From assembly GCA_964424195.1 (NCBI GenBank), contig CAYRHT010000002.1, positions 8,458 to 72,457 of the forward strand: a stretch of DNA of 64,000 bases. Direction: 5' to 3'. The translations under genes and the position numbers were made by a program. Below the pieces are notes generated by a model. It saw nothing but the letters and a program-made list of their open reading frames with translations. It had not been told where the DNA came from and made no database searches. Positions within the stretch are counted from its first letter, which is position 1, and each line of letters opens with the position of its first letter. The DNA is from an uncultured Gammaproteobacteria bacterium (GTDB taxonomy: Bacteria > Patescibacteriota > Patescibacteriia > UBA1558 > S5-K13). Shown here piece by piece: positions 8,685 to 64,000 of this stretch.

Positions 8685-11183
8685 ATGAATAGATTAAAAC
8701 AATTAAAATATAAATACTATATTGGTGTTATTATAGCTCTGACTATTGTTTTTAGTTCTATTAATTTTGTTCAAGCTGCTACTCCTACTTATGAAAATGC
8801 ACCAACAGCCTCTGAAGTTTTAATAGTTTATAATTCAGCTTATACTACTGATTCAGATACTGATGGTACTCAGGATAGTCAAGAAATAGCTGAATATTAT
8901 GTTACAAATAGACCAGGAGTTAATATTACTTCCATTTCTACTGTTACTAGTGAAACTATTTCTCGAACTAATTATAATTCTCAAATTAGAGATCCTTTAG
9001 AAGCTTATTTAACTGCTCAAGGTTTAACAGATTCTATTAAATTTATAGTTTTAGTCAAAGGTATTCCTTTAAAGATAGTTGCTACTAATGGTGGTTCTTA
9101 TGGTTCTACAGATTATTCTTCAGTAGATTCAGCAGTTTGTTTATTATACGAAGGAGATTATGTTATTAATTGGCGACACCCTAATCCTTATTATAACGCT
9201 GATCCTAGTTATACTAAGGCTTTCCGTTTTGATACTGATCACTTTACTAATGCTTCGGGAGTTACTTTAAATTATTTGGTAACTCGAATAGATGGATATT
9301 CAGTATCAAGTATGGAAGCGATAGTAGATAGAGGAGTGGGAGCTGATACTTCTGGAAATGGTTATTGGGTGATAGATGATAATTTAAAAACTTATGATCA
9401 AATGAGTACGGCTTATACTTATTTAAGTGATTTAAGTAGAAATGTTAATCCTGATCCTTGGTCAGACACTTCTTCTTATATTACAACTAATGCTAGTGGT
9501 TCTGTTATGGGTTACACTTCTCATGGAATTCATGCTTCTATGGGTGATGGTTATGTTTCTAATAGTCCAGTTAATGCTAACTATTTAGACTTTACATTAT
9601 TGAATGGAGCAGTATTCTCTACTTATGAATCATATAATGGATATGGTTTTACTGCTCCTACTCAATCAACTCACGGGCAAGTAGCAGAGTGGATAGAAAT
9701 TGGTGGTTCTGGTGGAGTTGGTAATGTTTATGAACCTTGGGCTTCTACTATCGCTCATGAAGAAATTTTTATGCCAGAATATACTATTGGTTATACTTGG
9801 GCAGAAGCAGCTTATATGTCTTTAGCTTATATGGATTTTGTTTCAGTGGTAATTGGTGATCCTTTAATGACTATTTCAGAAATTATTGCTCCAGCATCAG
9901 TAACAGCGACTAACGCCGTGAATGGAGATAATCAAGTAGCTTTTTCTTGGACTAATCCTGTTGACGCTGATTTTGTAGGAGTAAAAGTAGTTCGAAAGAC
10001 TGGATCTTATCCAGGACATAGTGCTGATGGAACTGTTATCTACAATGGAAGTAATGAATCATATATTGATACAGATGTTGTGAATAATACTACTTATTAT
10101 TACGCAATCTTTGCCTATGATGAAGTACCTAATTATTCTAGCTTAGGAGCTGGTTCCAAAGATAATGCTACACCATCTTCAGATACTACAGCACCAGATT
10201 CAGTAACTAGTATATTTGCTAATCCCGGAAATCATCAAGTAATTTTAACTTGGACTAATCCAACTAACGCTGATTTTGTGGGAGCGAGAGTAATGCGGAA
10301 AGAAGGTTCCTATTCTAGTACTTATGATGATGGAACTTTGGTTTATGATGGATCTAGTAATTCTTGTGTTAGTTCTGGTTTAACAAATGATGTAACTTAT
10401 TATTATACTATTTTTGCTTATGATGGAACTCCTAATTATGCTACTCCGGGAGCAGGAGCTAAGACAACATCTGCTCCTTATTTAACAGAATCAGGTGCAG
10501 AAATTGATGTTCAGCCTCCGGGATCTATTTACAGTTTTTCAGCAATTCCTGGGAATGCTCAAGTTTCTTTATCTTGGACAAATCCTGATGATAGCGACTT
10601 TTCTTTAGTTAAAGTCTTACGAAGAACAGATTATTATCCTCAAAGTTTTTCTAATGGTATTTTAATAACAAGTGTTAGTAGCACTACTACTTCATATACT
10701 GATACTGATGTAGTAAATGATACAACTTATTTCTATACTGCTTTTGCTTGTGATGTTTCTTTAAATTGTTCAGTGCTAACTTCTAATGCTCAAGATTATG
10801 CTACTCCTTGTGATGGTTCTTGTTCAGATACTAGTCCAGAAACAGCTCCTACTTATTCCCTATCTGAACCAGATATTTCTCCGCCAGTAGCTATTACAAA
10901 TTTTGACGCAGTTGCTGGTGATGAGAGTGCTAGTTTAACTTGGACAAATCCATTTGGAGATGATGATTGGGTTGGTACAATAGTAGTTAGAAAAACAGAT
11001 TCCTATCCTAATAGTTATACTGATGGTACTCAGATATATAACGGTCAAAATGGAGGATTTTATACTGATACAGGTTTAAGTAATGGAACTACTTATTATT
11101 ATGGAGCCTTTGCGTATGATACGGCTGGTAATTATACTGCTTCTAGTACTGACTCTAGTGATTTAGCAACACCAAGTGAATAA
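8685..11183 (+). CDS. Secreted protein with five fibronectin-type-III-like repeats and an N-terminal signal peptide.
   Basis: The leader 'MNRLKQLKYKYYIGVIIALTIVFSSINFVQA' ends in an AxA-like site. The unit 'W(T/S)NPxDxDFVGxxVxRKxGSYP...YxDTxxxNxTTYYYxxFAYD' is repeated five times. The start lies 2 nt after the stop of the giant gene. Confidence 0.75.
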   Translation: MNRLKQLKYKYYIGVIIALTIVFSSINFVQAATPTYENAPTASEVLIVYNSAYTTDSDTDGTQDSQEIAEYYVTNRPGVNITSISTVTSETISRTNYNSQIRDPLEAYLTAQGLTDSIKFIVLVKGIPLKIVATNGGSYGSTDYSSVDSAVCLLYEGDYVINWRHPNPYYNADPSYTKAFRFDTDHFTNASGVTLNYLVTRIDGYSVSSMEAIVDRGVGADTSGNGYWVIDDNLKTYDQMSTAYTYLSDLSRNVNPDPWSDTSSYITTNASGSVMGYTSHGIHASMGDGYVSNSPVNANYLDFTLLNGAVFSTYESYNGYGFTAPTQSTHGQVAEWIEIGGSGGVGNVYEPWASTIAHEEIFMPEYTIGYTWAEAAYMSLAYMDFVSVVIGDPLMTISEIIAPASVTATNAVNGDNQVAFSWTNPVDADFVGVKVVRKTGSYPGHSADGTVIYNGSNESYIDTDVVNNTTYYYAIFAYDEVPNYSSLGAGSKDNATPSSDTTAPDSVTSIFANPGNHQVILTWTNPTNADFVGARVMRKEGSYSSTYDDGTLVYDGSSNSCVSSGLTNDVTYYYTIFAYDGTPNYATPGAGAKTTSAPYLTESGAEIDVQPPGSIYSFSAIPGNAQVSLSWTNPDDSDFSLVKVLRRTDYYPQSFSNGILITSVSSTTTSYTDTDVVNDTTYFYTAFACDVSLNCSVLTSNAQDYATPCDGSCSDTSPETAPTYSLSEPDISPPVAITNFDAVAGDESASLTWTNPFGDDDWVGTIVVRKTDSYPNSYTDGTQIYNGQNGGFYTDTGLSNGTTYYYGAFAYDTAGNYTASSTDSSDLATPSE

Positions 11184-11185
11184 AT

Positions 11186-12163
11186 ATGAAATTAAACAAA
11201 CAAAAAATAGTTCTATTGATAATTTTAATGCTAATAGTAGTAATCTCTTTATTTTTTATATTCAAGAAAGAAAAATATTTTATACTATATATAGAAGGTT
11301 TAGATCAGGGAGTTTTAAAGCAATATTCAACAGAAGATTTACCAAATTTGAAGTCTTTGTTCAGTGCCGATTTAAATTCAGAAATTGCTTTAAACAAGGA
11401 GTCAAGTTTTTTAACAATTTTATCAGGGGAGTATAAATATGGATCTTTTGATCAGAAGGATCCAAATAAATATATTGTTAGTAAAAAAAAGGTAGATAAT
11501 TTAGGATTATTTTATCAAACAAATCTATATCAAAATGTTAGAGAAAATAATTTATCTTTTAGATTTTTAGAAAGAATAGAAAAAATTTTAAAGCTGGATA
11601 AATTTAAAGAGGATATAATTGTTTATTTAACTAATTTGGAAAATAATGATTTAAATTCTTATCAAGAGATTGATGGCTTAGTAGCTCAAATAGAAAAGAA
11701 AATCGGTTTTAACACTAGATTATTAATTATTACTCCTAATTATGAAGAAGAAAATAGTTTTAGAGAAATTAATGAAAACTTAATAGATAAAGGATTTTTA
11801 ACTTGTCCCGATAACTTTCAAGACTTGTCAGAATGTGATTTAGCTAATTCTTTTGCTTATAGTCCTGCTCCAGGTGAAGTATATATTAACAAAAAAGGTC
11901 GAGAAGAGTTGGGTCGAGTAGATTGGGATTATGAAGGAGTCATTGAAGATACAGCTTATGTTTTAACTTCTGAAATAGAAGAGAAAGATTTAAGGATGTA
12001 TAAGAGTAGAAATTATTTTCAACAAAAAGATGTACCAGAAATATTTGTTTTTGAAAAACAAAGGGAAGAAAAGGGTATAATGCTATCGAACAAAAAATTT
12101 ACTCAGGATAAATATGATTATTTAGAAATTTTAAACTTAATTAACTTAATTAAAAATGATTAA
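11186..12163 (+). CDS. Hypothetical membrane-anchored protein of the surface-protein operon.
   Basis: N-terminal 'MKLNKQK' followed by a hydrophobic helix. It is tightly coupled to its neighbours, lying 2 nt after the previous stop and overlapping the next gene by 8 nt. There is a weak, unverified resemblance to the N-terminal core of the alkaline-phosphatase superfamily. Confidence 0.5.
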   Translation: MKLNKQKIVLLIILMLIVVISLFFIFKKEKYFILYIEGLDQGVLKQYSTEDLPNLKSLFSADLNSEIALNKESSFLTILSGEYKYGSFDQKDPNKYIVSKKKVDNLGLFYQTNLYQNVRENNLSFRFLERIEKILKLDKFKEDIIVYLTNLENNDLNSYQEIDGLVAQIEKKIGFNTRLLIITPNYEEENSFREINENLIDKGFLTCPDNFQDLSECDLANSFAYSPAPGEVYINKKGREELGRVDWDYEGVIEDTAYVLTSEIEEKDLRMYKSRNYFQQKDVPEIFVFEKQREEKGIMLSNKKFTQDKYDYLEILNLINLIKND

Positions 12164-15100
12164 TAAATTAAAACAATTAGATTATCGTTATTATATTGGA
12201 ATAATAGTTATTGCTATTGCAATAGTTTTTGGTTTAATTTTTATTTTACGAGCTCCAAAGTCAGCTGAAGCTGAATGGTTTAATGATGGCTGGTATTATC
12301 GAAAATCTATTCCAGTCACTAATAATACTACAACAGAAATGAACGTTTATGTTTCTGTTACCATTGATACTTCAGATACTACTAAATTTCAAACAGATTG
12401 TGATGATGTGCGTTTTACTAATAGTGCTGGTAATAGATTTCCTTATTATCTTGTTTCAGGTTGTGGTACAGACACAACAGTAATTCATGTTTATTTTAAT
12501 AACCTTGATGCTGGTTTACAAAATATTTATTATTATTATGGTAATTCATCTGTAGAACAAGGTTCTGTTGGTTCAAATTTTTCTACGGTAGCTTCTGATT
12601 ATACAATTGGAACTATTACTAGTGAGGAACAATCTGAAGTACCAATAGCTTATTGGTCATTTGATGAAGGTTATGGAACTATTGCTCATGATAATACTTC
12701 TAGTAAAAATCATGGGACTTTAACAAATATGACCACCACTGGTATTTCTACAGCTTGGGTAGATGGTAAGTTCGGAAAAGGATTGAAGTTCGGTGATCAT
12801 AATTATGATAATTTAGCATTAGAAGAGGAGATAGGTTTTAGTGATGGAGATGAACATACTTTATCTTTTTGGATAAAGAATGATGGTACAAATACTTACA
12901 TCACTGTAGCTGGGAAAGAAACTGAGAATGGAAATTCAATTTATATTATTGATAATAGTGTAAATTATATATTTTATTTTCGAAGTGCAACTCAAAAACA
13001 ATTAGTGTCAGGAGTGGATACAACAGTTTTGTTTGATAAGAATTGGCATCAAGTTGTAATGACTGTGAATTCTAGTAAGCTATGTTCAGTTTATTTTGAT
13101 GGTAAATTACAGGGATCAGCAACTTTGACTACTTCAGATATGATTTATAGTTCTATTGGTTCAGGAATAAATGCTTTTCAAGTTGATGGCATAATGGACG
13201 AAGTTAAAATATATAATTATGTCTTATCAGCTTCGCAAGTTAAAAAATCTTATTCTTCTAGGTCTAAGAATTTTACAGCTATGAATTTATCTAAGTCAAA
13301 AAAAGATGCTCAGAATAAAAGAAATGTGGGTCTAGTTGGTTTCTGGAAAATGGATGAGGATTCTTGGGATAGTACAGCCAATGAAGTAATTGATTATTCA
13401 GGACTAGGAAATCATGGTACCAGTTATGCTGATGCTACTACAACTTCTAGTGCTAGATATAATAGAGCGGGAGAATTTGATGGAACGGGAGATTATATTA
13501 GTTGTGGTAGTGATAGTAGTTTAGATATGGGTGACGGCAGTTTAACTATTGGAACATGGATTAAAGCAGATAATGTGGATAATTATATGGGTATTATTAA
13601 TAAGAGTGCTTTGGGAGGTAGTCTTGGTTGGGGCATGGGAATAACTAATGGCAAAGTTAGATGTGAAATCCATGATGGAAGTAGAGCTTGGACTGAATAT
13701 GATACAACAATTGAAATCGATACTTGGTATTATATTATGGCTGTATTTGATAGAGGGGATGATAAAATAAAAGTTTATATTAACGGTAATAAAGAAAGTA
13801 CGGAGCTAGATATAACAGGTAAGGGATCAATAACTGGTTCTAACTGTTACATAGGTAGTCTTAATACTTCTGCTTGGATTTTCGATGGACAAGTTGATCA
13901 TGTTAAAGTTTGGAAACGAGCATTGACTACTAAAGAAATATCAGAAGAATATGTTACTGGACCAGCTCCAGTTGCTTATTGGTCCATGGATCAGATTGAC
14001 GGTACTACGGTTGTTGATCAGTCGGGAATGGGTAATGATTGTACTATGGATGGAGGAGTAACTAAAAATAATAATTGGAAGCCTGGGAAAGTAGGTCAGG
14101 CTTTATCATTTAAAGACGATGCTGATGCTCATCTTGATTGTGGTAATGATTCTAGTTTAGATATTACTGGAGCTATTACCATAGAATCTTGGGTTAAACC
14201 AGATTCATATGATTTTGCTTATCCTATGTTTCTTTCTAAGGCAGGATCATATTATAGAACTGGTTTAGCTGCTGCAGGTGATGGAAGAGTATTTTTTAGA
14301 GTGAGAGTTGGTGGTGCGTATAAAACAGCCTATTCCTCTTCAGACGTCCCTTTGAATGAATGGACTCATGTTATAGGAACTTATGATGGAGAATATATGA
14401 GAGTTTATGTAAATGGTATTTTAAATGGAACTCCCTTAGCTCTATCAGGTAATATTGAGACTAATGTTGCTTCATTAATAGTAGGTTCAGCTTCTTTTGA
14501 TGGAGATTTAGATGAAATTAAACTTTATAATTATGCTCTTACTCCATATCAAATAGCTCAAGCATATGGTAATGGAGCTCCACTTACTTATTGGTCATTT
14601 GATGAGGGACAAGGAACTACTGCTTATGATAGTTTAGGGAGTAAAAATCATGGAACTTTAACTAATATGACTACTACCGGAGTTTCTTCAGCTTGGGTAG
14701 ATGGAAAGTTTGGAAAGGGTTTGAGATTTGATGGTAGTGATGATTATATTGATGCAGGTGATTTTTTAGATAATGGTGAAACAACGGTTAGTTTATGGTT
14801 TAGAAGTAGTTATCAAGGAACACATAATGGTCTAATAGATTTTGCTGGATCTAGTGGTATTGGACATTTTGATTTTAATCATTCTGGAGACGATAGACCT
14901 ATTTTATATTTAGATTCTACTAATTTTCGTTATTTTGATGCTTCAGCCACAGATTATATGGATGGAGAATGGCATTATTTAGTACTATATATACCAGGGT
15001 CAGACATGGATGATGTTTCAAGTGCAACATTAAGTATTGATAATGTTAATATACCATCATCTAGCACATCTGCCGCCGGAACTCAGGATACTTGGAATGA

Positions 15101-17228
15101 TTTATATATTGGTAAAACTAATTATGGTTCTTTTAATGGTGATCTAGATGAAGTTAAAATATATAATTATCAACTTACTCCTTTTGATATTGAAAAAGAG
15201 TTTGTCTCTTCTAGAGGAAAGAAACAAACTGGGCTTAATTTATCTAAATCAGAACAAGATAATGAGAGTGCTCAAGTCGAAGGTTTAGTAGCTCATTGGA
15301 AAATGGATGAAGCTTCTTGGGATGGTACAGCTGATGAGGTAATAGATTATTCAGGCTTAGGAAATCATGGAGTGTCAGCAGATGATGCTCATACTACAAC
15401 TACTGCTAGGTATAATAGAGCGGGGGGATTTGATGGAACAGATGATAGGATTACGATTGCCAATGATGATTCTTTAAATCCATCATCGGCAATTACTATC
15501 TCAGCTTGGTTTTATGCTAATTCTTTTGATGGTGATAGTATTAGTGGCAATTGTATTTTATCAAAGGGTGCTAGTACTAATGGTTATTGGTTAGTTGTGG
15601 GTAGTGGAAAAGCTCATTTTAAATGGGGAAGTTATTTAACTAATGATCTTGATTCAGATACCTTTAATCCAACTACTGGAGAATGGCATCATATTTTAAT
15701 ATCTTATGATGGAAATCATGGTATTTTTTATTATGATGGAAATGAAGTTGGAGAAGGAGATATGACTAAGGGTGATAACAATACTAGTTCTATGTCTCTG
15801 GGTTATTATATTAGTCCAGTCCCAAATCATTTTGATGGAGCTTTAGATAATGTGAAGATTTGGAATCGTGCTTTGTCTCCTACAGAAGCAGTAAATGAAT
15901 ATCATAAAATATTATCTCCAGTTGGTTATTGGTCAATGGATAATATTGATGGAATTACAGTTACTGATGATTCAGGAATGGGAAATGATTGTACTATGGA
16001 TGGAGAATTAAACAAGGCTGATGATTGGAAGCCAGGAAAAGTAGGGCAATCTCTATTTTTTGAAAATTGTTATAATGGAGGTCAATGTGAAGGGCATCAC
16101 TTAGAATGTGGTAATGATTCTAGTTTAGATATCGAAGGGGCAATTACTGTTGAGCAATGGGTAAAACCAAACTCCTTTACTTATTATCCAATCTTTATGA
16201 GAAAACCAAGCGATCTTTATCGGATTGGTTTAAGAGGTACAAATCCTACAGAAAATTTAGGAGATGGTCGGGTATATTGGAGAATTAAGATTGGTGGAGT
16301 AGCTAAAGCTAAGAGTGGTGCTATTTATATTCCTTCAAATGAGTGGAGTCATGTAGTTGGGACTTATGATGGAGAATATATGAGGCTTTATATAAATGGT
16401 GTGTTAGACGGTGCACCTTATGCTGTGACTGGGGATATAGATGTTTCTACTTATGATTTGATAGTAGGCGCTTATAATCTTTCCGGTAATTATACTTTTG
16501 ATGGTGACATGGATGAAGTTAAACTTTATAATTATGCTCTTACTTCTCATCAAGTAGCTCAAGCATATAATAATGGTAAACCGATTGCTCATTGGACATT
16601 TAATGAAGGAGAAGGTGATGTAGTAAAAAATAAAATAAATAATACTTATCATGGAGATATAGTTAATGCTACTTATGTTTCTGGTAAATCTGATACTGCT
16701 TTAAATTTTGATGGAGATGGAGATTATATTGATTTTGATAATACTGAAGATGATACTTTTTATCCTACTACTACTTATGAATCAGTAACTATTGCTACTT
16801 GGATGAAATTAAATACAGCCAGTCAAGAATCAGCTGTGGTTGGAAGATTTGATTCAGTTGGATCTAATCATTGGTATAATTATGGTTCGGGTATAAAATA
16901 TGTTAATGGAGCTGTGAAAGTGATGGGAATGTCTAATGCAAATAATCCTTTATTAAGTTATGATTTAACAGATACAAGTTCTTGGCATCATGTTGTAGCT
17001 ATTGTGAATACAACAGATGGTAAGTTATATGTAGACGGTATTTTGAGAGATAGCGGAGATTTAAGTTCAAATGGCGGTTATGATTTTGCTATTGGAGCTC
17101 AAACTAATGCTGGAACTAGTTTTTACTTTGATGGGCAATTGGATGAAGTAAAAATATGGAATTATGGCTTAAGTCCATTAGATGTTCAAAATGATTATAA
17201 TCTAGGGAAAGGGGTGTTTTTTAAGTAG
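12156..17228 (+). CDS. Secreted giant protein made of seven concanavalin-A-like/LamG (Laminin_G_3-type) lectin domains.
   Basis: The leader 'MINKLKQLDYRYYIGIIVIAIAIVFGLIFILRAPKSAEA' is followed by repeated LamG signatures ('YWSFDEG', 'NHGTLTNMTTTG', 'WVDGKFGKGL', 'DGxLDEVK(I/L)YNYxLT'). A three-domain supermodule occurs twice. Confidence 0.75.
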   Translation: MINKLKQLDYRYYIGIIVIAIAIVFGLIFILRAPKSAEAEWFNDGWYYRKSIPVTNNTTTEMNVYVSVTIDTSDTTKFQTDCDDVRFTNSAGNRFPYYLVSGCGTDTTVIHVYFNNLDAGLQNIYYYYGNSSVEQGSVGSNFSTVASDYTIGTITSEEQSEVPIAYWSFDEGYGTIAHDNTSSKNHGTLTNMTTTGISTAWVDGKFGKGLKFGDHNYDNLALEEEIGFSDGDEHTLSFWIKNDGTNTYITVAGKETENGNSIYIIDNSVNYIFYFRSATQKQLVSGVDTTVLFDKNWHQVVMTVNSSKLCSVYFDGKLQGSATLTTSDMIYSSIGSGINAFQVDGIMDEVKIYNYVLSASQVKKSYSSRSKNFTAMNLSKSKKDAQNKRNVGLVGFWKMDEDSWDSTANEVIDYSGLGNHGTSYADATTTSSARYNRAGEFDGTGDYISCGSDSSLDMGDGSLTIGTWIKADNVDNYMGIINKSALGGSLGWGMGITNGKVRCEIHDGSRAWTEYDTTIEIDTWYYIMAVFDRGDDKIKVYINGNKESTELDITGKGSITGSNCYIGSLNTSAWIFDGQVDHVKVWKRALTTKEISEEYVTGPAPVAYWSMDQIDGTTVVDQSGMGNDCTMDGGVTKNNNWKPGKVGQALSFKDDADAHLDCGNDSSLDITGAITIESWVKPDSYDFAYPMFLSKAGSYYRTGLAAAGDGRVFFRVRVGGAYKTAYSSSDVPLNEWTHVIGTYDGEYMRVYVNGILNGTPLALSGNIETNVASLIVGSASFDGDLDEIKLYNYALTPYQIAQAYGNGAPLTYWSFDEGQGTTAYDSLGSKNHGTLTNMTTTGVSSAWVDGKFGKGLRFDGSDDYIDAGDFLDNGETTVSLWFRSSYQGTHNGLIDFAGSSGIGHFDFNHSGDDRPILYLDSTNFRYFDASATDYMDGEWHYLVLYIPGSDMDDVSSATLSIDNVNIPSSSTSAAGTQDTWNDLYIGKTNYGSFNGDLDEVKIYNYQLTPFDIEKEFVSSRGKKQTGLNLSKSEQDNESAQVEGLVAHWKMDEASWDGTADEVIDYSGLGNHGVSADDAHTTTTARYNRAGGFDGTDDRITIANDDSLNPSSAITISAWFYANSFDGDSISGNCILSKGASTNGYWLVVGSGKAHFKWGSYLTNDLDSDTFNPTTGEWHHILISYDGNHGIFYYDGNEVGEGDMTKGDNNTSSMSLGYYISPVPNHFDGALDNVKIWNRALSPTEAVNEYHKILSPVGYWSMDNIDGITVTDDSGMGNDCTMDGELNKADDWKPGKVGQSLFFENCYNGGQCEGHHLECGNDSSLDIEGAITVEQWVKPNSFTYYPIFMRKPSDLYRIGLRGTNPTENLGDGRVYWRIKIGGVAKAKSGAIYIPSNEWSHVVGTYDGEYMRLYINGVLDGAPYAVTGDIDVSTYDLIVGAYNLSGNYTFDGDMDEVKLYNYALTSHQVAQAYNNGKPIAHWTFNEGEGDVVKNKINNTYHGDIVNATYVSGKSDTALNFDGDGDYIDFDNTEDDTFYPTTTYESVTIATWMKLNTASQESAVVGRFDSVGSNHWYNYGSGIKYVNGAVKVMGMSNANNPLLSYDLTDTSSWHHVVAIVNTTDGKLYVDGILRDSGDLSSNGGYDFAIGAQTNAGTSFYFDGQLDEVKIWNYGLSPLDVQNDYNLGKGVFFK

Positions 17229-57383: not shown

Positions 57384-58157
57384 ATGAAAAAGAAAATTGG
57401 AATTATGGGTTTTGGAGAAATTGGTCAATCAGTTGCTAGATTATATCCAAAATCAAAGTATCAAATTTTATCTAAAGATTTAAAACATGATTCTCTAAAA
57501 GAGGAGAGGGTTGATGTTTTGCATATAGCTATCCCATATAGCAGTGATTTTATTAAAGACGTTGTAAAACAAGTTAAATTAAATCAACCAGAATTTGTAA
57601 TTATAGAATCAACTACTAATGTAGGAGTTACTAGTAAGATTAATAGTAAATTAAAAAAGAAAATAGTAGTTCATAGTCCAGTTCGAGGAATGCATCCTAA
57701 CTTGACAAAAAGCTTAAAATGTTTCATAAAGTATATTGGAGCAGATAATAAGAATATTGGGGAGAGAGCAGTGAGGCATTATCAAGCTATTGGAGTTAAA
57801 TCTAAACTTTTTATGCCATCTGAGTCAACTGAACTAAATAAAATATTATCAACTTCTTATTATGGAATTTGTATTGCTTGGGCTGCAGAAATTAAAAGAT
57901 TATGTGATCAGCACGGTGTAGATTATAAATCATTTGAAGATTTTAATAATTCTTATAATGAAGGTTACCTTAAGATGGGATTAAAAAATGTAGTTCGTCC
58001 GACTCTATATCCACCAAAAAATGGTATTGGAGGTCATTGTGTATGGGAAAATGCAACTATGTTTAATCCCCGAGCTAAATCAAAGTTTTTAGATTTAATA
58101 TTAGATGCTGGTAAAGATAAATCTGCTAAAACATTAAAGTTAAAAAAGAAAAGTTAA
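57384..58157 (+). CDS. NAD(P)-binding Rossmann-fold oxidoreductase (short UDP-glucose/GDP-mannose dehydrogenase-like?).
   Basis: N-terminal 'KIGIMGFGEIGQSVA' (GxGxxG) and 'GIGGHCV'. The family assignment is uncertain. Confidence 0.35.
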   Translation: MKKKIGIMGFGEIGQSVARLYPKSKYQILSKDLKHDSLKEERVDVLHIAIPYSSDFIKDVVKQVKLNQPEFVIIESTTNVGVTSKINSKLKKKIVVHSPVRGMHPNLTKSLKCFIKYIGADNKNIGERAVRHYQAIGVKSKLFMPSESTELNKILSTSYYGICIAWAAEIKRLCDQHGVDYKSFEDFNNSYNEGYLKMGLKNVVRPTLYPPKNGIGGHCVWENATMFNPRAKSKFLDLILDAGKDKSAKTLKLKKKS

Positions 58158-58221
58158 TTTGTTTGGTTCTATTTAGTATGATATACTCTTAATAGAGTAT
58201 CCTTTTATGGATAATGATAAG

Positions 58222-58249
58222 AGTTCGCATAATATAGGTTAATCGAACT
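58222..58249. promoter_or_regulatory. 28-bp dif-like palindromic site immediately upstream of the Xer recombinase gene.
   Basis: 'AGTTCGCATAA-TATAGG-TTAATCGAACT': the outer 6-nt arms are perfect inverted repeats, and the left arm matches the XerC-arm consensus 'TGCGCATAA'. It lies 30 nt upstream of the xer ATG. Confidence 0.4.
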
Positions 58250-58278
58250 AACATATAACAATTCATCTAAAACAAGCT

Positions 58279-59235
58279 ATGAAGTCTAATTTGCCTATCC
58301 TCCACCATTTAAATGATTTTTTAGATTATTTAGATATTGAAAAAGGTTTAGCTAATAATTCTCAGAAGAATTATAATCTTTTTTTAAATAAGTTTTTTAA
58401 TTGGTTAAAGGAAAATGATAAATCTAAGTTAAAACCTCATGAATTAACTTATAAGCATGTTTGGGATTATAAGTTATATTTATCTCGTTCTCAGTCTTTG
58501 ACAACTCATAAGAATTTAAAAAGAAAAACTCAAAATTATTATTTAATAGCTTTAAGATCGTTGTTAGATTTTTTTGCAGATCGAGATATAGACACTCTCC
58601 CCTCTTCGAAGATAAAACTACCCAAAGTAAGTAAGGATAAAGTTCCTAATTTTTTAACAATAGAAGATGTAGAAAAATTATTATCAGAACCAGATGTTGA
58701 TAATAAGATAGGTTTAAGAGATAAATCTATTTTAGAAGCTTTTTTTTCTACAGGTATGAGAATAGCAGAATTAACTTCTTTAAATAGAGATCAGTTTAAT
58801 CATTTAAAAATGGAAGAAGGTTTGGAAATGACTATTATTGGTAAAGGTGATAAGCCGAGAACTGTTTATTTTTCAAAAAGGTCATTAAAATGGTTAAAAG
58901 AATATTTAGATACTAGAACAGATTTAGATAAATCTTTATTTATTCGTTATTCAGGAAATAAATCTGATTCCAGAAGACTTTCAATTAGATCAATAGAGAA
59001 ATTAGTAAAAAAATACGCTAAATTAGCTGGATTACCAATAGATATAACTCCTCATACTCTGAGACATTCTTATGCTACTGATCTTTTAACTCAAGGAGTT
59101 GATTTAAGGACTGTGCAGGAATTCTTGGGACATAGCAATATTTTAACAACTCAAATATATACTCATGTTACTAATAAGAGGTTGAGAGATGTTCATAAAA
59201 AATATCATAGTGGTAATCGTTTAAAAGATAATTAA
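58279..59235 (+). CDS. xerC: Tyrosine site-specific recombinase XerC/XerD family.
   Basis: 'HTLRHSYATDLL' and 'LGHSNILTTQIYTHV' (R-H-R-Y catalytic motif region), 318 aa. Confidence 0.85.
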   Translation: MKSNLPILHHLNDFLDYLDIEKGLANNSQKNYNLFLNKFFNWLKENDKSKLKPHELTYKHVWDYKLYLSRSQSLTTHKNLKRKTQNYYLIALRSLLDFFADRDIDTLPSSKIKLPKVSKDKVPNFLTIEDVEKLLSEPDVDNKIGLRDKSILEAFFSTGMRIAELTSLNRDQFNHLKMEEGLEMTIIGKGDKPRTVYFSKRSLKWLKEYLDTRTDLDKSLFIRYSGNKSDSRRLSIRSIEKLVKKYAKLAGLPIDITPHTLRHSYATDLLTQGVDLRTVQEFLGHSNILTTQIYTHVTNKRLRDVHKKYHSGNRLKDN

Positions 59236-59261
59236 AACAATTGTACCTATGAATTTTGTAT

Positions 59262-60479
59262 TTAATTTCCTAAGTAATTTAAAGGATTAGTGGGAGTTCC
59301 ATTTATTCTAACTTCAAAATGTAAATGAGGTGCGGTTGTTAAACGACCAGCACCTTTTGTGCCTGGCATACCACCAGATTTACCAATAATATCTCCTTGA
59401 AGAACAAAATCTCCGGGAGATACATTCATTTGAGAAACATGTCCGTAAACAGTAGATAATCCATTATTATGCACTAGCATGATATAGCTATAACCATAAC
59501 CATTATCTTTAGCTACGGCTACATATCCAGAACCAGCAGCTTTAAGAGGTGTTCCTTGTCCAGCCCTAATATCTATAGCTGGATGTTCAAATATTCTTCG
59601 AAAAGGATAGTCAGGATCATGGAAATAGGCAGTGACATGTTTTGATGGAACTGGCCAGATTAAAACACCATCATCATCCGGAATTCTACCACTTTGTTCA
59701 GCTAATAATCTTCGAGCTTGATTTTCATATTGAGTAATTAAGTTGTTAGCTTCTTCTTGTTCAGCTCTTAATTCTGCTAAGAGGTTATAGAATTGAGCTT
59801 CATCATGTTCAGTCCGAGCTAGGAACATAAATTTAACATCTTGTTCTTCTTTTAGTTTATATTGGTCAATTGTTAATTTCTTATACAAACTTTCTAATTC
59901 AGCTTTTGATTTTACTAAACTAGAATTCTTTTGTTCTAACCATTCTTTAAGTTGATTTAAACTATCTGTTTTTTTCTTCAAATCTGATTGAATAGATTTA
60001 AACTTATTAATCTCATCAAAAAAATCACTTAAATTATCATAGAGTAATAATACTTTTAAATATCCACCTTTTTCTTCTTCTCGGTATAGATTTTGAAGAG
60101 AATTTTTAATTCTTTCCTTATTGATCTCAATTTCGTTTTCTTTTCTTTCAATTTCTAAATTTACAGATTTAATCTCTAGATTCATATTTTCAACCTGTAA
60201 ATTTGTTGATTCAATCCCTAGAGTTCGGGAAGCTATTTTACTGTTTAATATGGAAATTTCATTACTAAGACTAGCAGATTCTTGTTGTTTTTGCTTTATT
60301 TTCTGTTGATATACTTTTTGTTGATTATTTAATTCACTAATGATCTTTTGTTTATCAGAAATCATACCTTTTAAATCAGAAATATTCTCGGAATGAGAAT
60401 TATTGAATGGTAAAAAAATATTAGCAATTACAAAAATTCCAATTAAAGTTTTTGTTATCTTTTTATTTTTGTTTAACAT
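59262..60479 (-). CDS. M23-family metallopeptidase with a long N-terminal coiled coil (EnvC-like).
   Basis: A signal peptide, about 250 aa of coiled coil, and C-terminal 'HLHFEVRINGTPTNPLNYL' (M23 HxH). Confidence 0.8.
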   Translation of the reverse strand: MLNKNKKITKTLIGIFVIANIFLPFNNSHSENISDLKGMISDKQKIISELNNQQKVYQQKIKQKQQESASLSNEISILNSKIASRTLGIESTNLQVENMNLEIKSVNLEIERKENEIEINKERIKNSLQNLYREEEKGGYLKVLLLYDNLSDFFDEINKFKSIQSDLKKKTDSLNQLKEWLEQKNSSLVKSKAELESLYKKLTIDQYKLKEEQDVKFMFLARTEHDEAQFYNLLAELRAEQEEANNLITQYENQARRLLAEQSGRIPDDDGVLIWPVPSKHVTAYFHDPDYPFRRIFEHPAIDIRAGQGTPLKAAGSGYVAVAKDNGYGYSYIMLVHNNGLSTVYGHVSQMNVSPGDFVLQGDIIGKSGGMPGTKGAGRLTTAPHLHFEVRINGTPTNPLNYLGN

Positions 60480-60498
60480 GTATTAATTATATCACGAA

Positions 60499-61923
60499 TT
60501 AAGAGTTTAATTTTTCCAAGGCTTTATCGATTCTACTTAAACTTTCTTCTTTCTCTAGAATCCATAGTATTTCAGCTGGACTAGGGCTTTTATCTAATCC
60601 AGATAAAGCGAATCGTAATGGCCAAAATACATCTCCAGGATTTAATTCACTTCCATTAACTATTTCTTTTAGTAAATTATCTAATTCTTCTAAACTCCAT
60701 TTACTAAAGTCATTTAATTTTTCTTTAACAAGTTTTAATCCTTTAATTGTTTTTTCTTGATCACTTTTTTTGAATATTAACATTTTAGAATCATAATCAG
60801 GTAATTCAAAAATAAACTTACTAGGCTCCTCTAGTTCAGATAGATAATTTAATCTACTTGACAAAACTATGAATATGTTTTCTAATTTATTTTTATCTAA
60901 ATCTTGAGGAAAATACTTTTTAATTTCTTCTAATAATTTTTGATATCTTTTACCTTTTTCTTTAACTATCTGACGAACATATTCAGCATTAAACCAATTA
61001 AGTTTTTCAACATTAAATATAGCTCCCGCTTTATTTATCTTAGCAACATCAAAGTCTTTGATTAACTCCTCTACTGAGTAGATTTCTTTAGTAGTTTTAG
61101 GATTCCAGCCTAAGAAAGCTATGTAGTTTAAGATAGCTTCTGGGAGATAACCTTTCTTTAAGAAGTCCTCTGCTGCTACATCTCCTTGTCGCTTAGATAA
61201 TTTAGATTTATCTGGGTTTAATAACAAAGGTAAGTGAATAAATTCTGGAGCTTTCCAGTTAAACATTTTGTAAAGTAAAATATGCTTAGGAGTTGATGGT
61301 AACCACTCTTCGCCTCTGATAATATGAGTAACGTCCATTTCATGATCATCTACTACAACAGCTAAGTGATAGGTTGGATAACCATCAGATTTTAATAAAA
61401 CCTGATCATCCATGTCATTAGTATTAATCTTAACTTCACCATAAACACCATCTTTAAAGATAATATCTTGATTGTCTGGGAGTCTTAATCTGATTACATA
61501 AGATTCTTTATTCTCTAGTTTTTTGCTTATTTCTTCTTTAGATAGATTTAGACAATGACGATCATATTTAGGAATTCTTTTTTCAGCTTGCTGTGCTGTT
61601 CTCATTTCATCAAGTCTCTCTTTAGTACAAAAACAATAATATGCTTTATCTTCTTTAATTAATTGTTCAACATACTTCTTATATATATCTAATCTTTTTG
61701 ATTGATAAAAAGGTCCTTCATCAAAATCAATTCCAAAAGTTTTTAGAGTTTCAATAATTTGTTGGTCAGCTTTTTCTACATATCTACTTTGATCAGTATC
61801 TTCTATTCGTAACAAGAATTTAGCTTTATTATTTTTAGCAAATAGATAGTTGTATAGTGCGGTTCTTAATCCGCCGATATGCAGGTATCCAGTTGGTGAT
61901 GGTGCAAATCTTACTTTATTCAT
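60499..61923 (-). CDS. gltX: Glutamyl-tRNA synthetase.
   Basis: 'VRFAPSPTGYLHIGGLRTAL' and 'KLSKRQG' (KMSKS). Confidence 0.9.
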   Translation of the reverse strand: MNKVRFAPSPTGYLHIGGLRTALYNYLFAKNNKAKFLLRIEDTDQSRYVEKADQQIIETLKTFGIDFDEGPFYQSKRLDIYKKYVEQLIKEDKAYYCFCTKERLDEMRTAQQAEKRIPKYDRHCLNLSKEEISKKLENKESYVIRLRLPDNQDIIFKDGVYGEVKINTNDMDDQVLLKSDGYPTYHLAVVVDDHEMDVTHIIRGEEWLPSTPKHILLYKMFNWKAPEFIHLPLLLNPDKSKLSKRQGDVAAEDFLKKGYLPEAILNYIAFLGWNPKTTKEIYSVEELIKDFDVAKINKAGAIFNVEKLNWFNAEYVRQIVKEKGKRYQKLLEEIKKYFPQDLDKNKLENIFIVLSSRLNYLSELEEPSKFIFELPDYDSKMLIFKKSDQEKTIKGLKLVKEKLNDFSKWSLEELDNLLKEIVNGSELNPGDVFWPLRFALSGLDKSPSPAEILWILEKEESLSRIDKALEKLNS

Positions 61924-61924
61924 A

Positions 61925-63157
61925 TTATTTAATATATTTATTAATTTCTTTTAACATTATATTTAATGACTGATGTCGGATGATGTGGATATGATCTTTT
62001 AATTCTTCTTTTTTAACCCACTTGTGATTTTGAAGTTCTTCTTGAGGATTTGGTTCTTCATTTTCAGTTTGTTTTAGAATAAATATTCTTTGATTCTGAC
62101 CAGCAGTTTTGTAATAATGAGGCATTCGTTCAGATTTAGGCTTAATCATTTCCGGCATAAAATAGTATTTATGCAATTCATCTAATTTTTTGATTATTTT
62201 AACTTTTTTTAATCCAGTTTCTTCATAGACTTCTTTTAAAATTGCCTCTTCTTCGCTTTCATCTTTTTCTACACCACCTTGAGGAAATTGCCAATGATTA
62301 GGATCGTCTTTTCTATTTAAAACTAGAAATTCATTATTTTGATTCAATATTACTCCTAAGACGTTTTTTCTAAAAGATTTTTGAATATGAATAGACCATA
62401 ATATTAAATACCAAGAGTATTTAAGAGTGGCATTTAGAATTCTATTAATTCTGCTTGGTTCTATAAATAATCGCCATAACCATTCTATTCCTACTTTTCT
62501 GAATGCTTGAGGAGCTCGGAGTATTTTTCCAGATATGAAATCAAATGTTCCTCCAACTCCCATAGCTATTTTAATATTAGGTATTTTTGATATGTTTTCC
62601 CAAATCCATTTTTCTTGCCAAGGAGCTCCATAGGCTACTAATAATATCTGAGCTTGGCTATCTTTAATCTTTTCAATAATTCTATTATTCTCTTCAGGAG
62701 TTATTTTTTGAATATTTGAAAAGCCCTCCTCTGCTCCAACTATATTTAATCCTTTGTACTTTAATTCTAATTTAGTTTTTGATGTCTCTGCTGACCCTTC
62801 TCTCCCGCCTAAGAGAAATACTTTATATCCTTTATGAGCTGCTAATTCATTAATTTTGTAAGTTAAATCTATTCCAGTTACTCGATGATAGAGAGGGTCT
62901 CCCAAAAACCAAGAACCTAAGATTAATCCAAATCCATCTGCTAGAGATAGACTAGCATTATTTAATATTCCTCGGTAATAGATATCTCGACTAGCTTTGA
63001 GTATTATTTCTGGATTGGGAGTCACTATATAATGTTGTTTTTGATCAGCAACAAACTCCTCTATTTTTAATAGAGTTTCTTGATAGTTTATTTTATTTAT
63101 TTCTGTTCCAAGAATGTTAACTTTAACCATGATTTTAACATTAAAATTACACATCAA
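61925..63157 (-). CDS. Fusion protein: N-terminal WecB/TagA/CpsF-family glycosyltransferase (GT26) and C-terminal Nudix hydrolase.
   Basis: The N-terminal ~250 aa ('VNILGTEINKINYQETL...ADGFGLIL...VFLLGG') are GT26-like. The C-terminus carries a Nudix box 'GGVEKDESEEEAILKEVYEETGL' (Gx5Ex7KEVxEExGL). Confidence 0.6.
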   Translation of the reverse strand: MMCNFNVKIMVKVNILGTEINKINYQETLLKIEEFVADQKQHYIVTPNPEIILKASRDIYYRGILNNASLSLADGFGLILGSWFLGDPLYHRVTGIDLTYKINELAAHKGYKVFLLGGREGSAETSKTKLELKYKGLNIVGAEEGFSNIQKITPEENNRIIEKIKDSQAQILLVAYGAPWQEKWIWENISKIPNIKIAMGVGGTFDFISGKILRAPQAFRKVGIEWLWRLFIEPSRINRILNATLKYSWYLILWSIHIQKSFRKNVLGVILNQNNEFLVLNRKDDPNHWQFPQGGVEKDESEEEAILKEVYEETGLKKVKIIKKLDELHKYYFMPEMIKPKSERMPHYYKTAGQNQRIFILKQTENEEPNPQEELQNHKWVKKEELKDHIHIIRHQSLNIMLKEINKYIK

Positions 63158-63187
63158 AGTGTGTTTATATCTTTATTTTAGCATATA

Positions 63188-63213
63188 AAAACAGGCTCAG
63201 AAAGAGCCTGTTT
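63188..63213 (-). terminator. Hairpin terminator downstream of ahcY (minus strand).
   Basis: 'aaacaggctcagaaagagcctgttt': a 10-bp GC-containing stem with A/T flanks. Confidence 0.6.
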
Positions 63214-63236
63214 AACAATTTAAACTAAATAATAAT

Positions 63237-64000
<764 letters not shown>

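What the first reader, a model, noticed from the sequence alone, without database searches (positions are those of the whole stretch)
58222..58249. 28-bp dif-like palindrome directly upstream of the Xer recombinase gene (XerS/XerH-style arrangement)
'AGTTCGCATAATATAGGTTAATCGAACT' has perfect 6-nt inverted outer arms around a 16-nt core. The left half (TTCGCATAAT) resembles the XerC-binding arm of dif (TGCGCATAA), and the length is 28 bp as for dif. It sits 30 nt upstream of the recombinase start codon, with only a single Xer gene nearby. This mirrors single-recombinase systems such as XerS/difSL in streptococci and XerH/difH in Helicobacter, where dif is adjacent to the recombinase gene. That suggests a single-Xer chromosome-dimer-resolution system in this organism.
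Basis: partly seen in the sequence, partly recalled or inferred. Interest (0 to 1): 0.5.

Follow-up and report, generated by a model that had tools for sequence, protein, structure and literature searches.

The report
Candidate dif site beside Patescibacteria xer
The 28-bp palindrome upstream of the recombinase gene is very probably the chromosome-dimer-resolution (dif) site of an ultrasmall CPR bacterium, because it is conserved next to that gene across many related genomes and sits where replication ends; no such system turned up in the literature I could search for this large bacterial group.

Summary
AGTTCGCATAATATAGGTTAATCGAACT lies at 58222-58249. It has two 11-nt arms (9/11 complementary) around a 6-nt centre, is unique in the window, and ends 29 nt before a 318-aa Xer-like tyrosine recombinase gene.

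- **Conservation:** 69 of 73 related Patescibacteria loci carry a homologous 28-bp site within 700 nt upstream of the orthologous gene (79 PWM hits in 1.2 Mb against 1 in a reversed-sequence control).
- **Terminus:** GC skew switches + to - at the site in 33 of 34 loci, and genes converge there. In the window the cumulative maximum is at 59,338.
- **Single recombinase:** the outer arm positions co-vary. In a close relative (82-84% identical flanks) window 58155-59260 is replaced by a different recombinase (34% identity) with its own 28-bp 11-6-11 site. These look like interchangeable gene-plus-site modules.
- **Phages:** several phage contigs lacking any recombinase in the DNA held carry full copies of either site type near their terminase genes.

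The protein misses the curated XerD, XerC, XerA and XerS cut-offs, so this is a new member of the single-recombinase Xer/dif kind. Whole-genome uniqueness, absence of a second partner, FtsK dependence and biochemistry are untested.

The parts
58222..58249 (+). 28-bp dif-like recombination site (type 1), 11-6-11 layout
   Evidence: Sequence read. Unique in the window. Arms defined. Homologous sites in 69 of 73 related loci. Phylogenetic footprint. Scores 33.4 bits on the family PWM.
58222..58232 (+). Left arm AGTTCGCATAA (resembles the XerC-side arm of E. coli dif)
   Evidence: T4, C5, A10 and A11 are invariant, and G6 is nearly so (67 of 68), across 68 sites. Outer positions 2 and 3 co-vary with 27 and 26.
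58233..58238 (+). 6-bp central region TATAGG, the inferred site of strand exchange
   Evidence: The family consensus is TGTAGG or TATAGG. The cleavage positions are inferred by analogy with dif (review PMC5357621).
58239..58249 (+). Right arm TTAATCGAACT, an imperfect inverted copy of the left arm (9/11)
   Evidence: T18 and A21 are invariant, and A20 is nearly so (66 of 68).
58279..59235 (+). xer: 318-aa Xer-like tyrosine recombinase (type 1), inferred to act on the adjacent site
   Evidence: Pfam Phage_integrase plus SAM-like N-terminal domain. NCBIfam XerD 239.2, XerC 229.4 and XerA 199.3 bits, all below cut-off. Best solved relative is E. coli XerD 1a0p, with the R-K-H-R-H-Y catalytic positions aligned. 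R161, K189, H259, R262, H285 and Y294 are invariant in 20 orthologs.
58155..59260 (.). The exchangeable cassette (intergenic DNA, site and xer) between conserved flanks
   Evidence: In L132 the flanks align at 82-84% up to window 58154 and from window 59261. The stretch between is replaced by a different 28-bp site plus a recombinase 34% identical to Xer1.
59236..59340 (.). Convergent gene junction and local cumulative G-C maximum, the inferred replication terminus
   Evidence: xer (+) ends at 59235 and the M23 peptidase gene (-) ends at 59262. The cumulative G-C maximum is at 59,338 and the two-segment change point at 59,340 in window plus L001. Relatives L004 and L136 carry a small-ORF plus second-recombinase insertion between window 59239 and 59261.

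Best explanation
The 28-bp sequence is the dif-equivalent site of this Patescibacteria (CPR) chromosome. The adjacent gene encodes the one Xer-type tyrosine recombinase that acts on it. Gene and site together form a self-contained module at the replication terminus.

Inferred mechanism, by analogy with XerA, XerH and XerS: two recombinase protomers bind the two 11-bp arms. Two dif copies on a chromosome dimer synapse into a tetramer. The catalytic tyrosine (Y294) cleaves at the edges of the 6-bp centre. Two sequential pairs of strand exchanges through a Holliday junction then turn the dimer into monomers before division.

Because the site lies in the xer 5' region, Xer binding probably also limits xer expression. 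This is a secondary inference.

Shown here: the architecture of the site, its conservation, its linkage to xer, its position at the skew and gene-orientation switch, co-variation of the arms, exchange of the whole module, and copies of the site on phage contigs. Inferred only: binding, cleavage, any need for FtsK, and the absence of a partner recombinase elsewhere in the genome.
For: 1. **Architecture.** 11-6-11 layout with 9/11 complementary arms.
2. **Active recombinase next door.** It has Phage_integrase and SAM-like domains, and the R-K-H-R-H-Y positions align with E. coli XerD and are invariant in 20 orthologs.
3. **Conservation.**
   - A PWM built from the family finds 79 sites of at least 14 bits in 1.2 Mb of related loci plus the window, against 1 in reversed sequences.
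   - 69 of 73 loci with enough upstream DNA have one within 700 nt of xer.
   - The median gap is 47 nt (range 9-646), and 7 of 72 sites are inverted relative to xer. That does not fit a fixed promoter or operator geometry.
4. **Terminus.**
   - Mean GC skew is positive in all nine 1-kb bins left of the site (+0.07 to +0.14) and negative in all ten to the right (-0.06 to -0.13). 33 of 34 loci switch + to -.
   - 96% of coding bases to the left are on the + strand and 84% to the right are on the - strand. GC3 skew flips whatever the gene strand.
   - In the window, minus-strand genes have + strand skew +0.08 to the left and -0.14 to the right. The cumulative maximum is at 59,338.
5. **One recombinase.**
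   - Pair 3-26 switches G-C to T-A together (0 of 1000 shuffles reach the observed value) and pair 2-27 also co-varies (9 of 1000).
   - There is no second recombinase in the window, and only 2 of 80 related loci have a second full-length one within 10 kb.
6. **Module exchange.**
   - L132, L141 and L149 keep the same neighbouring genes but carry a second recombinase family, here called YR2 (34% identical to Xer1), with its own 28-bp site ACTGAGTGTAA-GGGATA-TTATACTCAGT.
   - Tandem intermediates hold only one intact site (L004 and L136 type 1, L140 type 2).
7. **Phage copies.**
   - Full type-1-like sites occur on IMG/VR phage contigs L086, L092, L103 and L091. Type-2-like sites occur on L143-L147 and L148.
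   - None has a tyrosine recombinase in the DNA held. The sites lie upstream of, and within about 700 nt of, the large-terminase gene.
   - The reversed control for the type-2 pattern gave 0 hits against 6.
Against: - There is no biochemical or genetic evidence.
- Only 69 kb of the ~952-kb contig could be read. Genome-wide uniqueness of the site, its position opposite the origin, and the absence of a distant second Xer are therefore unverified.
- In the window the skew maximum is 1.1 kb right of the site. Genes to the right have GC3 skew near 0 rather than the mirror image of the left side.
- The inner arm positions differ consistently between the two arms (CAYAA against the complement of TWAAK). 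This is also what a two-recombinase site would look like.
- Related loci are phylogenetically linked, so shuffle statistics overstate independence.
- A broad type-1 pattern is not enriched in viral contigs against its reversed control (20 against 26). Only the top scores stand out (38.0, 35.2 and 33.2 against a control maximum of 29.1).
Confidence: 0.8

Rival explanations
1. It is a true dif site served by two different recombinases, as in XerC/XerD. The adjacent gene would be the XerD-like partner, and a XerC-like partner (for example a YR2-type gene) would be encoded elsewhere in the genome.
For: - The two arms differ consistently in their inner 4-5 nt, as XerC and XerD arms do.
- A second Xer-like family that scores slightly better on XerC than on XerD (201.8 against 187.9 bits) is conserved at 60-65% identity across Patescibacteria.
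- That family sits in tandem with Xer1 in L004, L136 and L140.
- Most of the genome is unseen.
Against: - YR2 has its own, different 28-bp site and occupies the same syntenic slot instead of Xer1 in L132, L141, L149 and L133.
- No YR2 hit of 69% identity or more lies on the window's 952/953-kb contig, although close relatives' orthologs are listed. Reciprocally, no Xer1 hit lies on L132's contig.
- 78 of 80 type-1 loci have no second full-length recombinase within 10 kb.
- The outer arms co-vary as if read by one protein.
Confidence: 0.12
2. The palindrome is only a promoter or operator element controlling xer, with no role in recombination.
For: - It lies in the 5' region of xer.
- In type-2 loci the equivalent site ends 7-8 nt before the ATG, so some regulatory effect is plausible.
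Against: - The distance to xer varies from 9 to 646 nt, and 7 of 72 sites are inverted.
- The consensus promoter scan finds nothing above chance (8 found against 10.0 expected).
- An operator would not explain why the locus sits at the skew and gene-orientation switch in 33 of 34 genomes.
- An operator would not explain full copies on phage contigs that have no xer.
Confidence: 0.03
3. Gene plus site is the integration module of a mobile element (an integrase with its attachment site), not a housekeeping dimer-resolution system.
For: - The module is exchanged as a unit between close relatives.
- Small recombinase cassettes are inserted next to it in some genomes.
- Phages carry the same sites.
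Against: - The recombinase is a near-universal gene with 59-64% identity across several candidate phyla, and appears once per MAG among the 80 best loci apart from one pair that looks like a binning duplicate.
- It is always flanked by housekeeping genes (serS, alr, an FtsQ-like POTRA gene, an M23 peptidase gene, gltX).
- There is no tRNA or flanking direct repeat in the window.
- It always sits at the terminus.
Confidence: 0.04

Closest known systems
XerS/difSL of streptococci and lactococci
   Same: One recombinase with its site immediately beside the gene, acting as a single module at the terminus (PMC5357621; PMC2731167 abstract).
   Different: difSL is 31 bp with an 11-bp centre; here the site is 28 bp with a 6-bp centre. 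The protein scores 114.3 bits on the XerS equivalog against a cut-off of 267 and is 318 aa against 356 aa.
XerA/dif of archaea
   Same: A single XerC/D-like recombinase. The T. kodakarensis dif is two 11-bp imperfect inverted repeats with a 6-bp spacer, and in Halobacterium salinarum a dif-like sequence lies upstream of the xerA operon (PMC11840125). XerA structures 4a8e and 5hxy are the second and fourth best solved relatives.
   Different: This is a bacterial lineage. The XerA equivalog scores 199.3 bits against a cut-off of 220. Independence from FtsK is unknown here.
XerC/XerD with dif (E. coli, B. subtilis)
   Same: 28-bp 11-6-11 site at the terminus. The left arm and centre are close to E. 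coli dif (18 of 28 positions, own comparison). The best solved relative is XerD 1a0p at 138.7 bits.
   Different: There is no evidence for two recombinases. The XerD and XerC equivalog scores (239.2 and 229.4) are below their cut-offs (329.6 and 335.15). The right arm is an inverted copy of the left arm, not a XerD-type arm. The gene is linked to the site.
XerH/difH of Helicobacter and Campylobacter
   Same: Single recombinase with two imperfect inverted arms.
   Different: The difH arms (AGTTATGAAAA and AAAAGTTTGA) are unrelated apart from AGTT. XerH is a distant solved relative at 61.4 bits.
XerL/dif of Legionellales with the dif-mimicking element LME-1
   Same: A lineage-specific single-recombinase dif/Xer system, where a mobile element with a dif mimic integrates at dif (PMC9765430 abstract). 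That parallels the phage contigs found here.
   Different: Different recombinase family and site. Here the carriers are tailed-phage contigs with terminase, portal and head genes, and integration has not been shown.
'Cand' subgroup of simple tyrosine recombinases (Smyshlyaev et al. 2021)
   Same: Described as Xer-related recombinases from unclassified candidate phyla, among the simple recombinases that may compensate for Xer function (PMC8138268). It probably includes this protein.
   Different: In the passages I read that paper gives no recombination site, genomic position or module structure. Membership could not be tested because the subgroup HMM is not available here.
XDS sites (XerD-binding dif-like sequences) of B. 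subtilis
   Same: Extra dif-like sequences bound by XerD in the terminus region that unload SMC complexes (cited in PMC11840125). They resemble the polar left-arm half-sites flanking dif-xer in Paceibacteria-type loci.
   Different: These half-sites are absent from the window itself. Their function is untested, and I do not know of the strict outward polarity being described for XDS.

Membership tests
dif (generic Xer chromosome-dimer-resolution site) | About 28 bp: two 11-bp imperfect inverted arms around a 6-8 bp centre | tested here: met
   Arms 58222-58232 and 58239-58249, 9/11 complementary, with a 6-nt centre.
dif (generic Xer chromosome-dimer-resolution site) | Lies at the replication terminus (GC-skew shift point) | tested here: met
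   Window: sign change at 58-59.3 kb and cumulative maximum at 59,338, with a strand-independent component. Related loci: 33 of 34 switch + to - at the site, and genes converge there. The position relative to oriC was not testable.
dif (generic Xer chromosome-dimer-resolution site) | Single copy per chromosome | tested here: inconclusive
   Unique in the 64-kb window. Related loci have essentially one full site per 20 kb.
dif (generic Xer chromosome-dimer-resolution site) | Conserved in related genomes | tested here: met
   69 of 73 loci; 79 PWM hits against 1 in the control. Footprint alignment.
dif (generic Xer chromosome-dimer-resolution site) | Bound and recombined by the Xer recombinase | not testable with these tools
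   Needs EMSA, cleavage or in vivo deletion assays.
XerC/XerD two-recombinase system | Two paralogous recombinases, each binding one arm | tested here: inconclusive
   There is only one recombinase in the window plus 5 kb, and no YR2 ortholog on the 953-kb contig among the listed hits. Most of the genome is unseen.
XerC/XerD two-recombinase system | Protein passes the curated XerD (TIGR02225) or XerC (TIGR02224) equivalog cut-off | tested here: not met
   239.2 bits against 329.6, and 229.4 bits against 335.15.
XerS/difSL | Protein passes the XerS equivalog NF003462 | tested here: not met
   114.3 bits against a cut-off of 267, matching the C-terminal half only.
XerS/difSL | 31-bp site with an 11-bp central region | tested here: not met
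   The site is 28 bp with a 6-bp centre. The difSL description is from PMC5357621.
XerS/difSL | Site immediately adjacent to the recombinase gene (single module) | tested here: met
   29 nt from the ATG in the window. The median is 47 nt in 72 sites.
XerA/dif (archaeal) | Protein passes the XerA equivalog NF040815 | tested here: not met
   199.3 bits against a cut-off of 220.
XerA/dif (archaeal) | Recombination independent of FtsK | not testable with these tools
   There is no ftsK gene in the window (searches cover part of it), and no functional assay is possible.
XerH/difH | XerH-type protein and difH-type arms | tested here: not met
   XerH (5jjv) scores 61.4 bits against 138.7 for XerD. 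The difH arms given in PMC5357621 do not match.
IMEX (mobile elements exploiting Xer): applies to the phage contigs, not to the window | The element carries a dif mimic and no recombinase of its own | tested here: inconclusive
   Full sites lie on phage contigs L086, L092, L103, L091, L145 and L148 with no recombinase by tblastn in the DNA held. The contigs are incomplete, and no integrated copy at a host dif was found.

The most novel reading that the evidence does not exclude
Patescibacteria resolve chromosome dimers with self-contained 'recombinase gene plus dif' cassettes of at least two unrelated-site types, and three further features would follow.
- **Cassette swapping.** The cassettes replace each other at one fixed terminus slot, even between relatives with about 83% identical flanks.
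- **Polar half-sites.** In one large clade the cassette is bracketed by outward-pointing Xer half-sites whose polarity flips at dif. This would be an XDS-like or fork-trap-like architecture built from a recombinase.
- **Phage use.** Tailed phages of these bacteria place mimics of either dif type next to their terminase genes, to borrow the host Xer for integration or for resolving genome multimers.
Probability: 0.4. Interest if true: 0.75.

Novelty: new member of a known kind. Interest (0 to 1): 0.6.

Why it matters
- **Fills a gap.** Patescibacteria (CPR) make up a large share of bacterial diversity, yet no paper in the searchable library links them to chromosome dimer resolution or to a dif site.
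- **Practical marker.** A defined 28-bp site beside a near-universal gene gives a sequence marker for the replication terminus. That helps with curating and closing CPR genomes and with replication-rate estimates from coverage; the GRiD method turned up in the 'dif site' search (PMC6251912; not read).
- **Possible genetic tool.** It is a natural candidate for site-specific integration in a group that is hard to manipulate genetically.
- **Evolution of Xer systems.** The clean exchange of gene-plus-site cassettes between close relatives shows how single-recombinase Xer systems can displace one another.
- **Phage biology.** The phage-borne copies suggest a so far undescribed way in which CPR phages use host machinery.

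Tried and rejected
- **Genome-wide uniqueness.** A metagenome scan for the 22-nt core returned only two relatives' contigs (L084, L085) and not the source contig, so it says nothing about other copies in this genome.
- **Promoter or terminator reading.** The consensus scan of 57900-59500 found promoter-like sites at chance level (8 against 10.0 expected) and no terminator.
- **RNA element or tRNA-linked integrase.** There are no Rfam matches and no tRNA genes in the window.
- **Broad type-1 pattern in IMG/VR.**
  - It gave 20 hits against 26 for its reversed control, so there is no overall enrichment and most hits are chance.
  - Only the PWM top tail (38.0, 35.2 and 33.2 against a control maximum of 29.1) and the recurring position near terminase genes carry weight.
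  - L090 and L094 (64% GC, site inside an ORF) were left unresolved.
- **Weaker second PWM hits near xer** (L029, L030, L032, L033, L062, L064). I first read these as possible junctions left by integrated elements, but did not establish that. Some belong to the polar half-site class instead.
- **Literature.** The first word-start search was useless. The Karaboja et al. XDS paper is not held.
- **Not attempted.** I did not run structure prediction, judging that it would not separate the hypotheses. Locating dnaA on the contig is blocked by the tool restrictions.

Full report
**1. What is in the window**

The window is identical to part of JGI metagenome contig Ga0233431_1000003 (952,420 bp), record positions 572,225-636,224. 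It has about 28% GC. Its genes are typical of Patescibacteria (CPR): housekeeping genes plus giant surface proteins. The closest named relative is a Candidatus Komeilibacteria MAG, with 96% identical Xer and about 86% nucleotide identity.

The reported 28-mer AGTTCGCATAATATAGGTTAATCGAACT is at 58222-58249.
- It is unique in the window even with 3 mismatches allowed, and none appeared in 100 shuffles.
- The repeat finder resolves it into two 11-nt arms (58222-58232 and 58239-58249, 82% complementary) separated by 6 nt. This is the layout described for E. coli and B. subtilis dif (review PMC5357621).
- It ends 29 nt before ORF 58279-59235.

**2. The adjacent gene**

- The 318-aa product has the SAM-like N-terminal domain and the Phage_integrase catalytic domain.
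- It scores 239.2 bits on the XerD equivalog, 229.4 on XerC, 199.3 on archaeal XerA and 114.3 on XerS. All are below the curated cut-offs.
- Its best solved relatives are E. coli XerD (1a0p, 138.7 bits), Pyrococcus XerA (4a8e) and, far behind, XerH (61.4 bits). In the XerD alignment the R, K, H-x-x-R, H and Y catalytic positions are all present. R161, K189, H259, R262, H285 and Y294 are invariant in an alignment of 20 orthologs.
- It is the only tyrosine recombinase detectable in the window and in 5 kb beyond it.
- Orthologs at 59-64% identity are abundant in Patescibacteria. The protein probably belongs to the 'Cand' subgroup of Xer-related recombinases from candidate phyla. In the passages I read, Smyshlyaev et al. 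describe that subgroup without any site (PMC8138268).

**3. Conservation of the site**

I fetched 80 related loci from species-representative genomes. They include Komeili-, Kuenen-, Falkow-, Specht-, Nealson- and Staskawiczbacteria and Paceibacterota.
- Almost every one has a related 28-mer upstream of xer.
- An iteratively built PWM gives the consensus ATGTCGCACAATGTAGGTAAAGCGACAT. T4, C5, A10, A11, T18 and A21 are invariant, and G6 and A20 nearly so. The window site scores 33.4 bits.
- Over 1.2 Mb (both strands) there are 79 hits of at least 14 bits, against 1 in reversed-sequence controls. 69 of 73 loci with at least 150 nt of upstream sequence have a site within 700 nt of xer.
- The median gap to xer is 47 nt (range 9-646), and 7 of 72 sites are inverted relative to xer.
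- In relatives whose Xer is only 70-73% identical, the 28-mer is the only alignable block of the intergenic region.

**4. Position at the replication terminus**

*In the window.*
- The + strand GC skew is +0.1 to +0.36 over nearly all of the first 58 kb and negative from 59 kb to at least 69 kb.
- Gene orientation flips at the same point.
- The switch is not only a coding-strand effect. Minus-strand genes left of the site have + strand skew +0.08 (GC3 +0.26), against -0.14 (GC3 -0.01) for minus-strand genes to the right.
- The cumulative G-C maximum is at 59,338, which is 1.1 kb right of the site.

*In the related loci.*
- Mean skew is positive in all nine 1-kb bins left of the site and negative in all ten to the right. 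33 of 34 loci with 5 kb on each side switch + to -.
- 96% of coding bases to the left are on the + strand and 84% to the right are on the - strand. GC3 skew flips irrespective of gene strand.
- A + to - switch with converging genes marks a terminus rather than an origin, by the established link between leading strands, G over C excess and gene co-orientation.

**5. One recombinase or two**

The inner arm positions differ consistently between the two arms, so a XerC/D-like pair had to be considered.

*Evidence for a single recombinase.*
- The outer positions of the two arms co-vary. Pair 3-26 changes from G-C to T-A together (0 of 1000 shuffles reach the observed value), and pair 2-27 also co-varies (9 of 1000). 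Relatedness inflates these numbers.
- Only 2 of 80 loci hold a second full-length recombinase within 10 kb.

*The second recombinase family.* That second recombinase (YR2) turned out to be informative.
- It is 34-36% identical to Xer1.
- It is conserved at 60-65% identity across other Patescibacteria.
- In L132, L141, L149 and the Buchananbacteria loci L133-L135 it occupies the same syntenic slot as Xer1, after serS, alr and an FtsQ-like gene and converging on the M23 peptidase gene and gltX.
- It carries its own 28-bp 11-6-11 site, ACTGAGTGTAA-GGGATA-TTATACTCAGT, with variants, 7-350 nt upstream.
- Those loci show the same + to - skew switch.

*A clean cassette replacement.* L132 aligns with the window at 82-84% identity up to 58154 and again from 59261. 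Only the cassette between is different.

*Tandem intermediates.*
- L004 and L136 have type-1 site, Xer1, small ORF(s) and YR2, with no type-2 site.
- L140 has an intact type-2 site with YR2, followed by a Xer1-like gene preceded only by two type-1 left half-sites.
- Each genome therefore keeps one intact site.

*Reciprocal absence.* No close YR2 ortholog is listed on the window's 953-kb contig, and no close Xer1 ortholog is listed on L132's contig.

Together this favours interchangeable single-recombinase modules. A distant partner elsewhere in the genome is not excluded.

**6. Copies on phage contigs**

*Type-1-like sites.*
- A strict type-1 pattern found one IMG/VR contig, L086, with the full site ACTTCGCATAATATAGGTTAAGCGAAGT. 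This is 25 of 28 identical to the window site and has the same centre.
- The site lies in a 1-kb gap between a terminase, portal and head module and a primase module.
- A broader pattern was not enriched over its reversed control (20 against 26).
- Its best PWM scores (38.0, 35.2, 33.2 and 29.1) exceed the control maximum except for one tie at 29.1. Those best sites are intergenic, or nearly so, in phage contigs L091, L086, L103 and L092.

*Type-2-like sites.*
- A type-2 pattern found 6 contigs representing two distinct phages, against 0 for its reversed control.

*Shared features.*
- None of these loci encodes a tyrosine recombinase in the DNA held.
- In L086, L092, L103, L145 and L148 the site lies upstream of, and within about 700 nt of, the large-terminase gene.
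- This points to phages borrowing host Xer, either to integrate at dif (as IMEX elements and Legionella LME-1 do; PMC5357621; PMC9765430) or to resolve multimers. It is independent support that the 28-mers are recombination targets.
- The numbers are small, and no integrated copy was found.

**7. An unexplained extra in related loci**

In the Paceibacteria-type loci, extra copies of the left-arm half-site only flank the module. Their consensus is (A/T)TGTCGCACAATAWTA.
- There are 62 copies outside dif, against 0 in reversed controls.
- Left of dif, none is on the + strand and 20 are on the - strand. Right of dif, 39 are on the + strand and 3 on the - strand.
- In 30-33 loci a copy sits 0-155 nt after the xer stop codon.
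- Right-arm-type half-sites are not enriched.
- The window's lineage lacks these copies.
- They recall the XerD-bound XDS sequences that unload SMC at the B. subtilis terminus (cited in PMC11840125). Their function here is open.

**8. Comparison with known systems and novelty**

- The arrangement matches XerS/difSL and, in part, archaeal XerA: one recombinase, with the site next to the gene, at the terminus.
- The protein fails every curated equivalog cut-off, and the site is neither difSL nor difH.
- Searches of the held literature found no paper linking Patescibacteria, CPR or Saccharibacteria with chromosome dimers, dif or Xer.
- I therefore file the window's feature as a new member of the single-recombinase Xer/dif kind.
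- The cassette exchange, the polar half-sites and the phage mimics are the parts that go beyond what has been described for the known systems.

**9. Verdict**

- Confidence that this is the dif-equivalent site served by the adjacent recombinase: about 0.8.
- Confidence that a single recombinase suffices: about 0.7.
- Binding, cleavage, control by FtsK and genome-wide uniqueness remain to be shown.

Noticed in passing
L132 9966-10975; also L141, L149, L140, L133-L135, L138, L150, L151: A second Xer-like family (YR2, 34-36% identical to the window's Xer) has its own 28-bp 11-6-11 site (ACTGAGTGTAAGGGATATTATACTCAGT and variants). It occupies the same terminus slot in other Patescibacteria. In L132 it replaces window 58155-59260 between flanks that are 82-84% identical.
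   Followed up: yes
window 59239/59261 junction; L004 2818-4257; L136 8525-10115; L034 about 10950-12436; L151 6578-8942: Close relatives carry an insertion right after xer that holds small ORF(s) followed by YR2; in L004 it is one 167-aa ORF with no family match. No type-2 site accompanies it in L004 and L136. The small ORF is homologous in L004, L136, L034 and L151, and its function is unknown.
   Followed up: partly
L086 10844-10871; L092 2792-2819; L103 8306-8333; L091 1595-1622; L145 8417-8444; L148 13303-13330: IMG/VR phage contigs carry full type-1-like or type-2-like dif sites but no tyrosine recombinase in the DNA held. Terminase, portal or head genes were identified on L086, L092, L103, L145 and L148. 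On those five contigs the site lies upstream of, and within about 700 nt of, the large-terminase gene. The phages may use host Xer.
   Followed up: partly
Related loci L009-L081, for example L032 8850 (-) and 11000 (+), L029 10995 (+), L037 9172 (-) and 10964/10988 (+): Polar left-arm half-sites ((A/T)TGTCGCACAATAWTA, with no right arm) flank the dif-xer module. There are 0 on + and 20 on - to the left of dif, and 39 on + and 3 on - to the right, against 0 in reversed controls. They often sit directly after the xer stop codon. They are absent from the window's lineage.
   Followed up: partly
L140 about 12290-12340, upstream of the gene at 12424-13383: Two tandem type-1 left half-sites (ACGTCGCACAATGTT and ATGTCGCACAATGTT) precede a Xer1-like gene in a locus whose intact site is type 2. 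This looks like a decayed type-1 dif.
   Followed up: partly
window 59262-63995 and L001 up to about window 69,235: Genes right of the terminus have GC3 skew near 0 on the + strand, not the mirror image of the strongly skewed left side (+0.41). xer itself has left-type GC3 skew (+0.56). In other genomes xer already shows right-side skew (-0.15). The cause may be a recent shift of the termination point or a rearrangement.
   Followed up: no
window 58183-58200: A 7-bp stem with a 4-nt loop (ATACTCT TAAT AGAGTAT) followed by CCTTTTAT lies 26 nt after the upstream gene. It is conserved in the closest relatives and may be its terminator. It is too AT-rich for the terminator scan.
   Followed up: no
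window 139-8682 and 12156-17228: There are two giant predicted surface proteins. One is 2,847 aa with LVIVD repeats and a pectinesterase-like stretch. The other is 1,690 aa with seven Laminin_G_3 (concanavalin-like) domains.
   Followed up: no
L133 18921-20358; L135 13325-14702; L141 2538-4402: A bAvd gene plus reverse-transcriptase gene pair (looks like a diversity-generating retroelement) lies within about 10 kb of the terminus module in several YR2-type loci.
   Followed up: no
L078 17345-17470: A 42-aa fragment 62% identical to the Xer C-terminus lies 7.3 kb downstream of the intact xer. It is probably a pseudogene remnant.
   Followed up: no
L090 1726-1753 and L094 2973-3000: An AT-rich type-1-like 28-mer (GTGTCGCAAAATATATGTTAAGCGATAC) sits in 64% GC viral contigs, inside a 170-aa ORF. 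It is unlikely by composition, and both host and meaning are unknown.
   Followed up: no
PDB chain 9i5v_14: A 401-aa chain labelled 'Ribosome-associated translation inhibitor RaiA' matches the Xer protein over nearly its full length (85 bits). The molecule name looks wrong for that chain.
   Followed up: no
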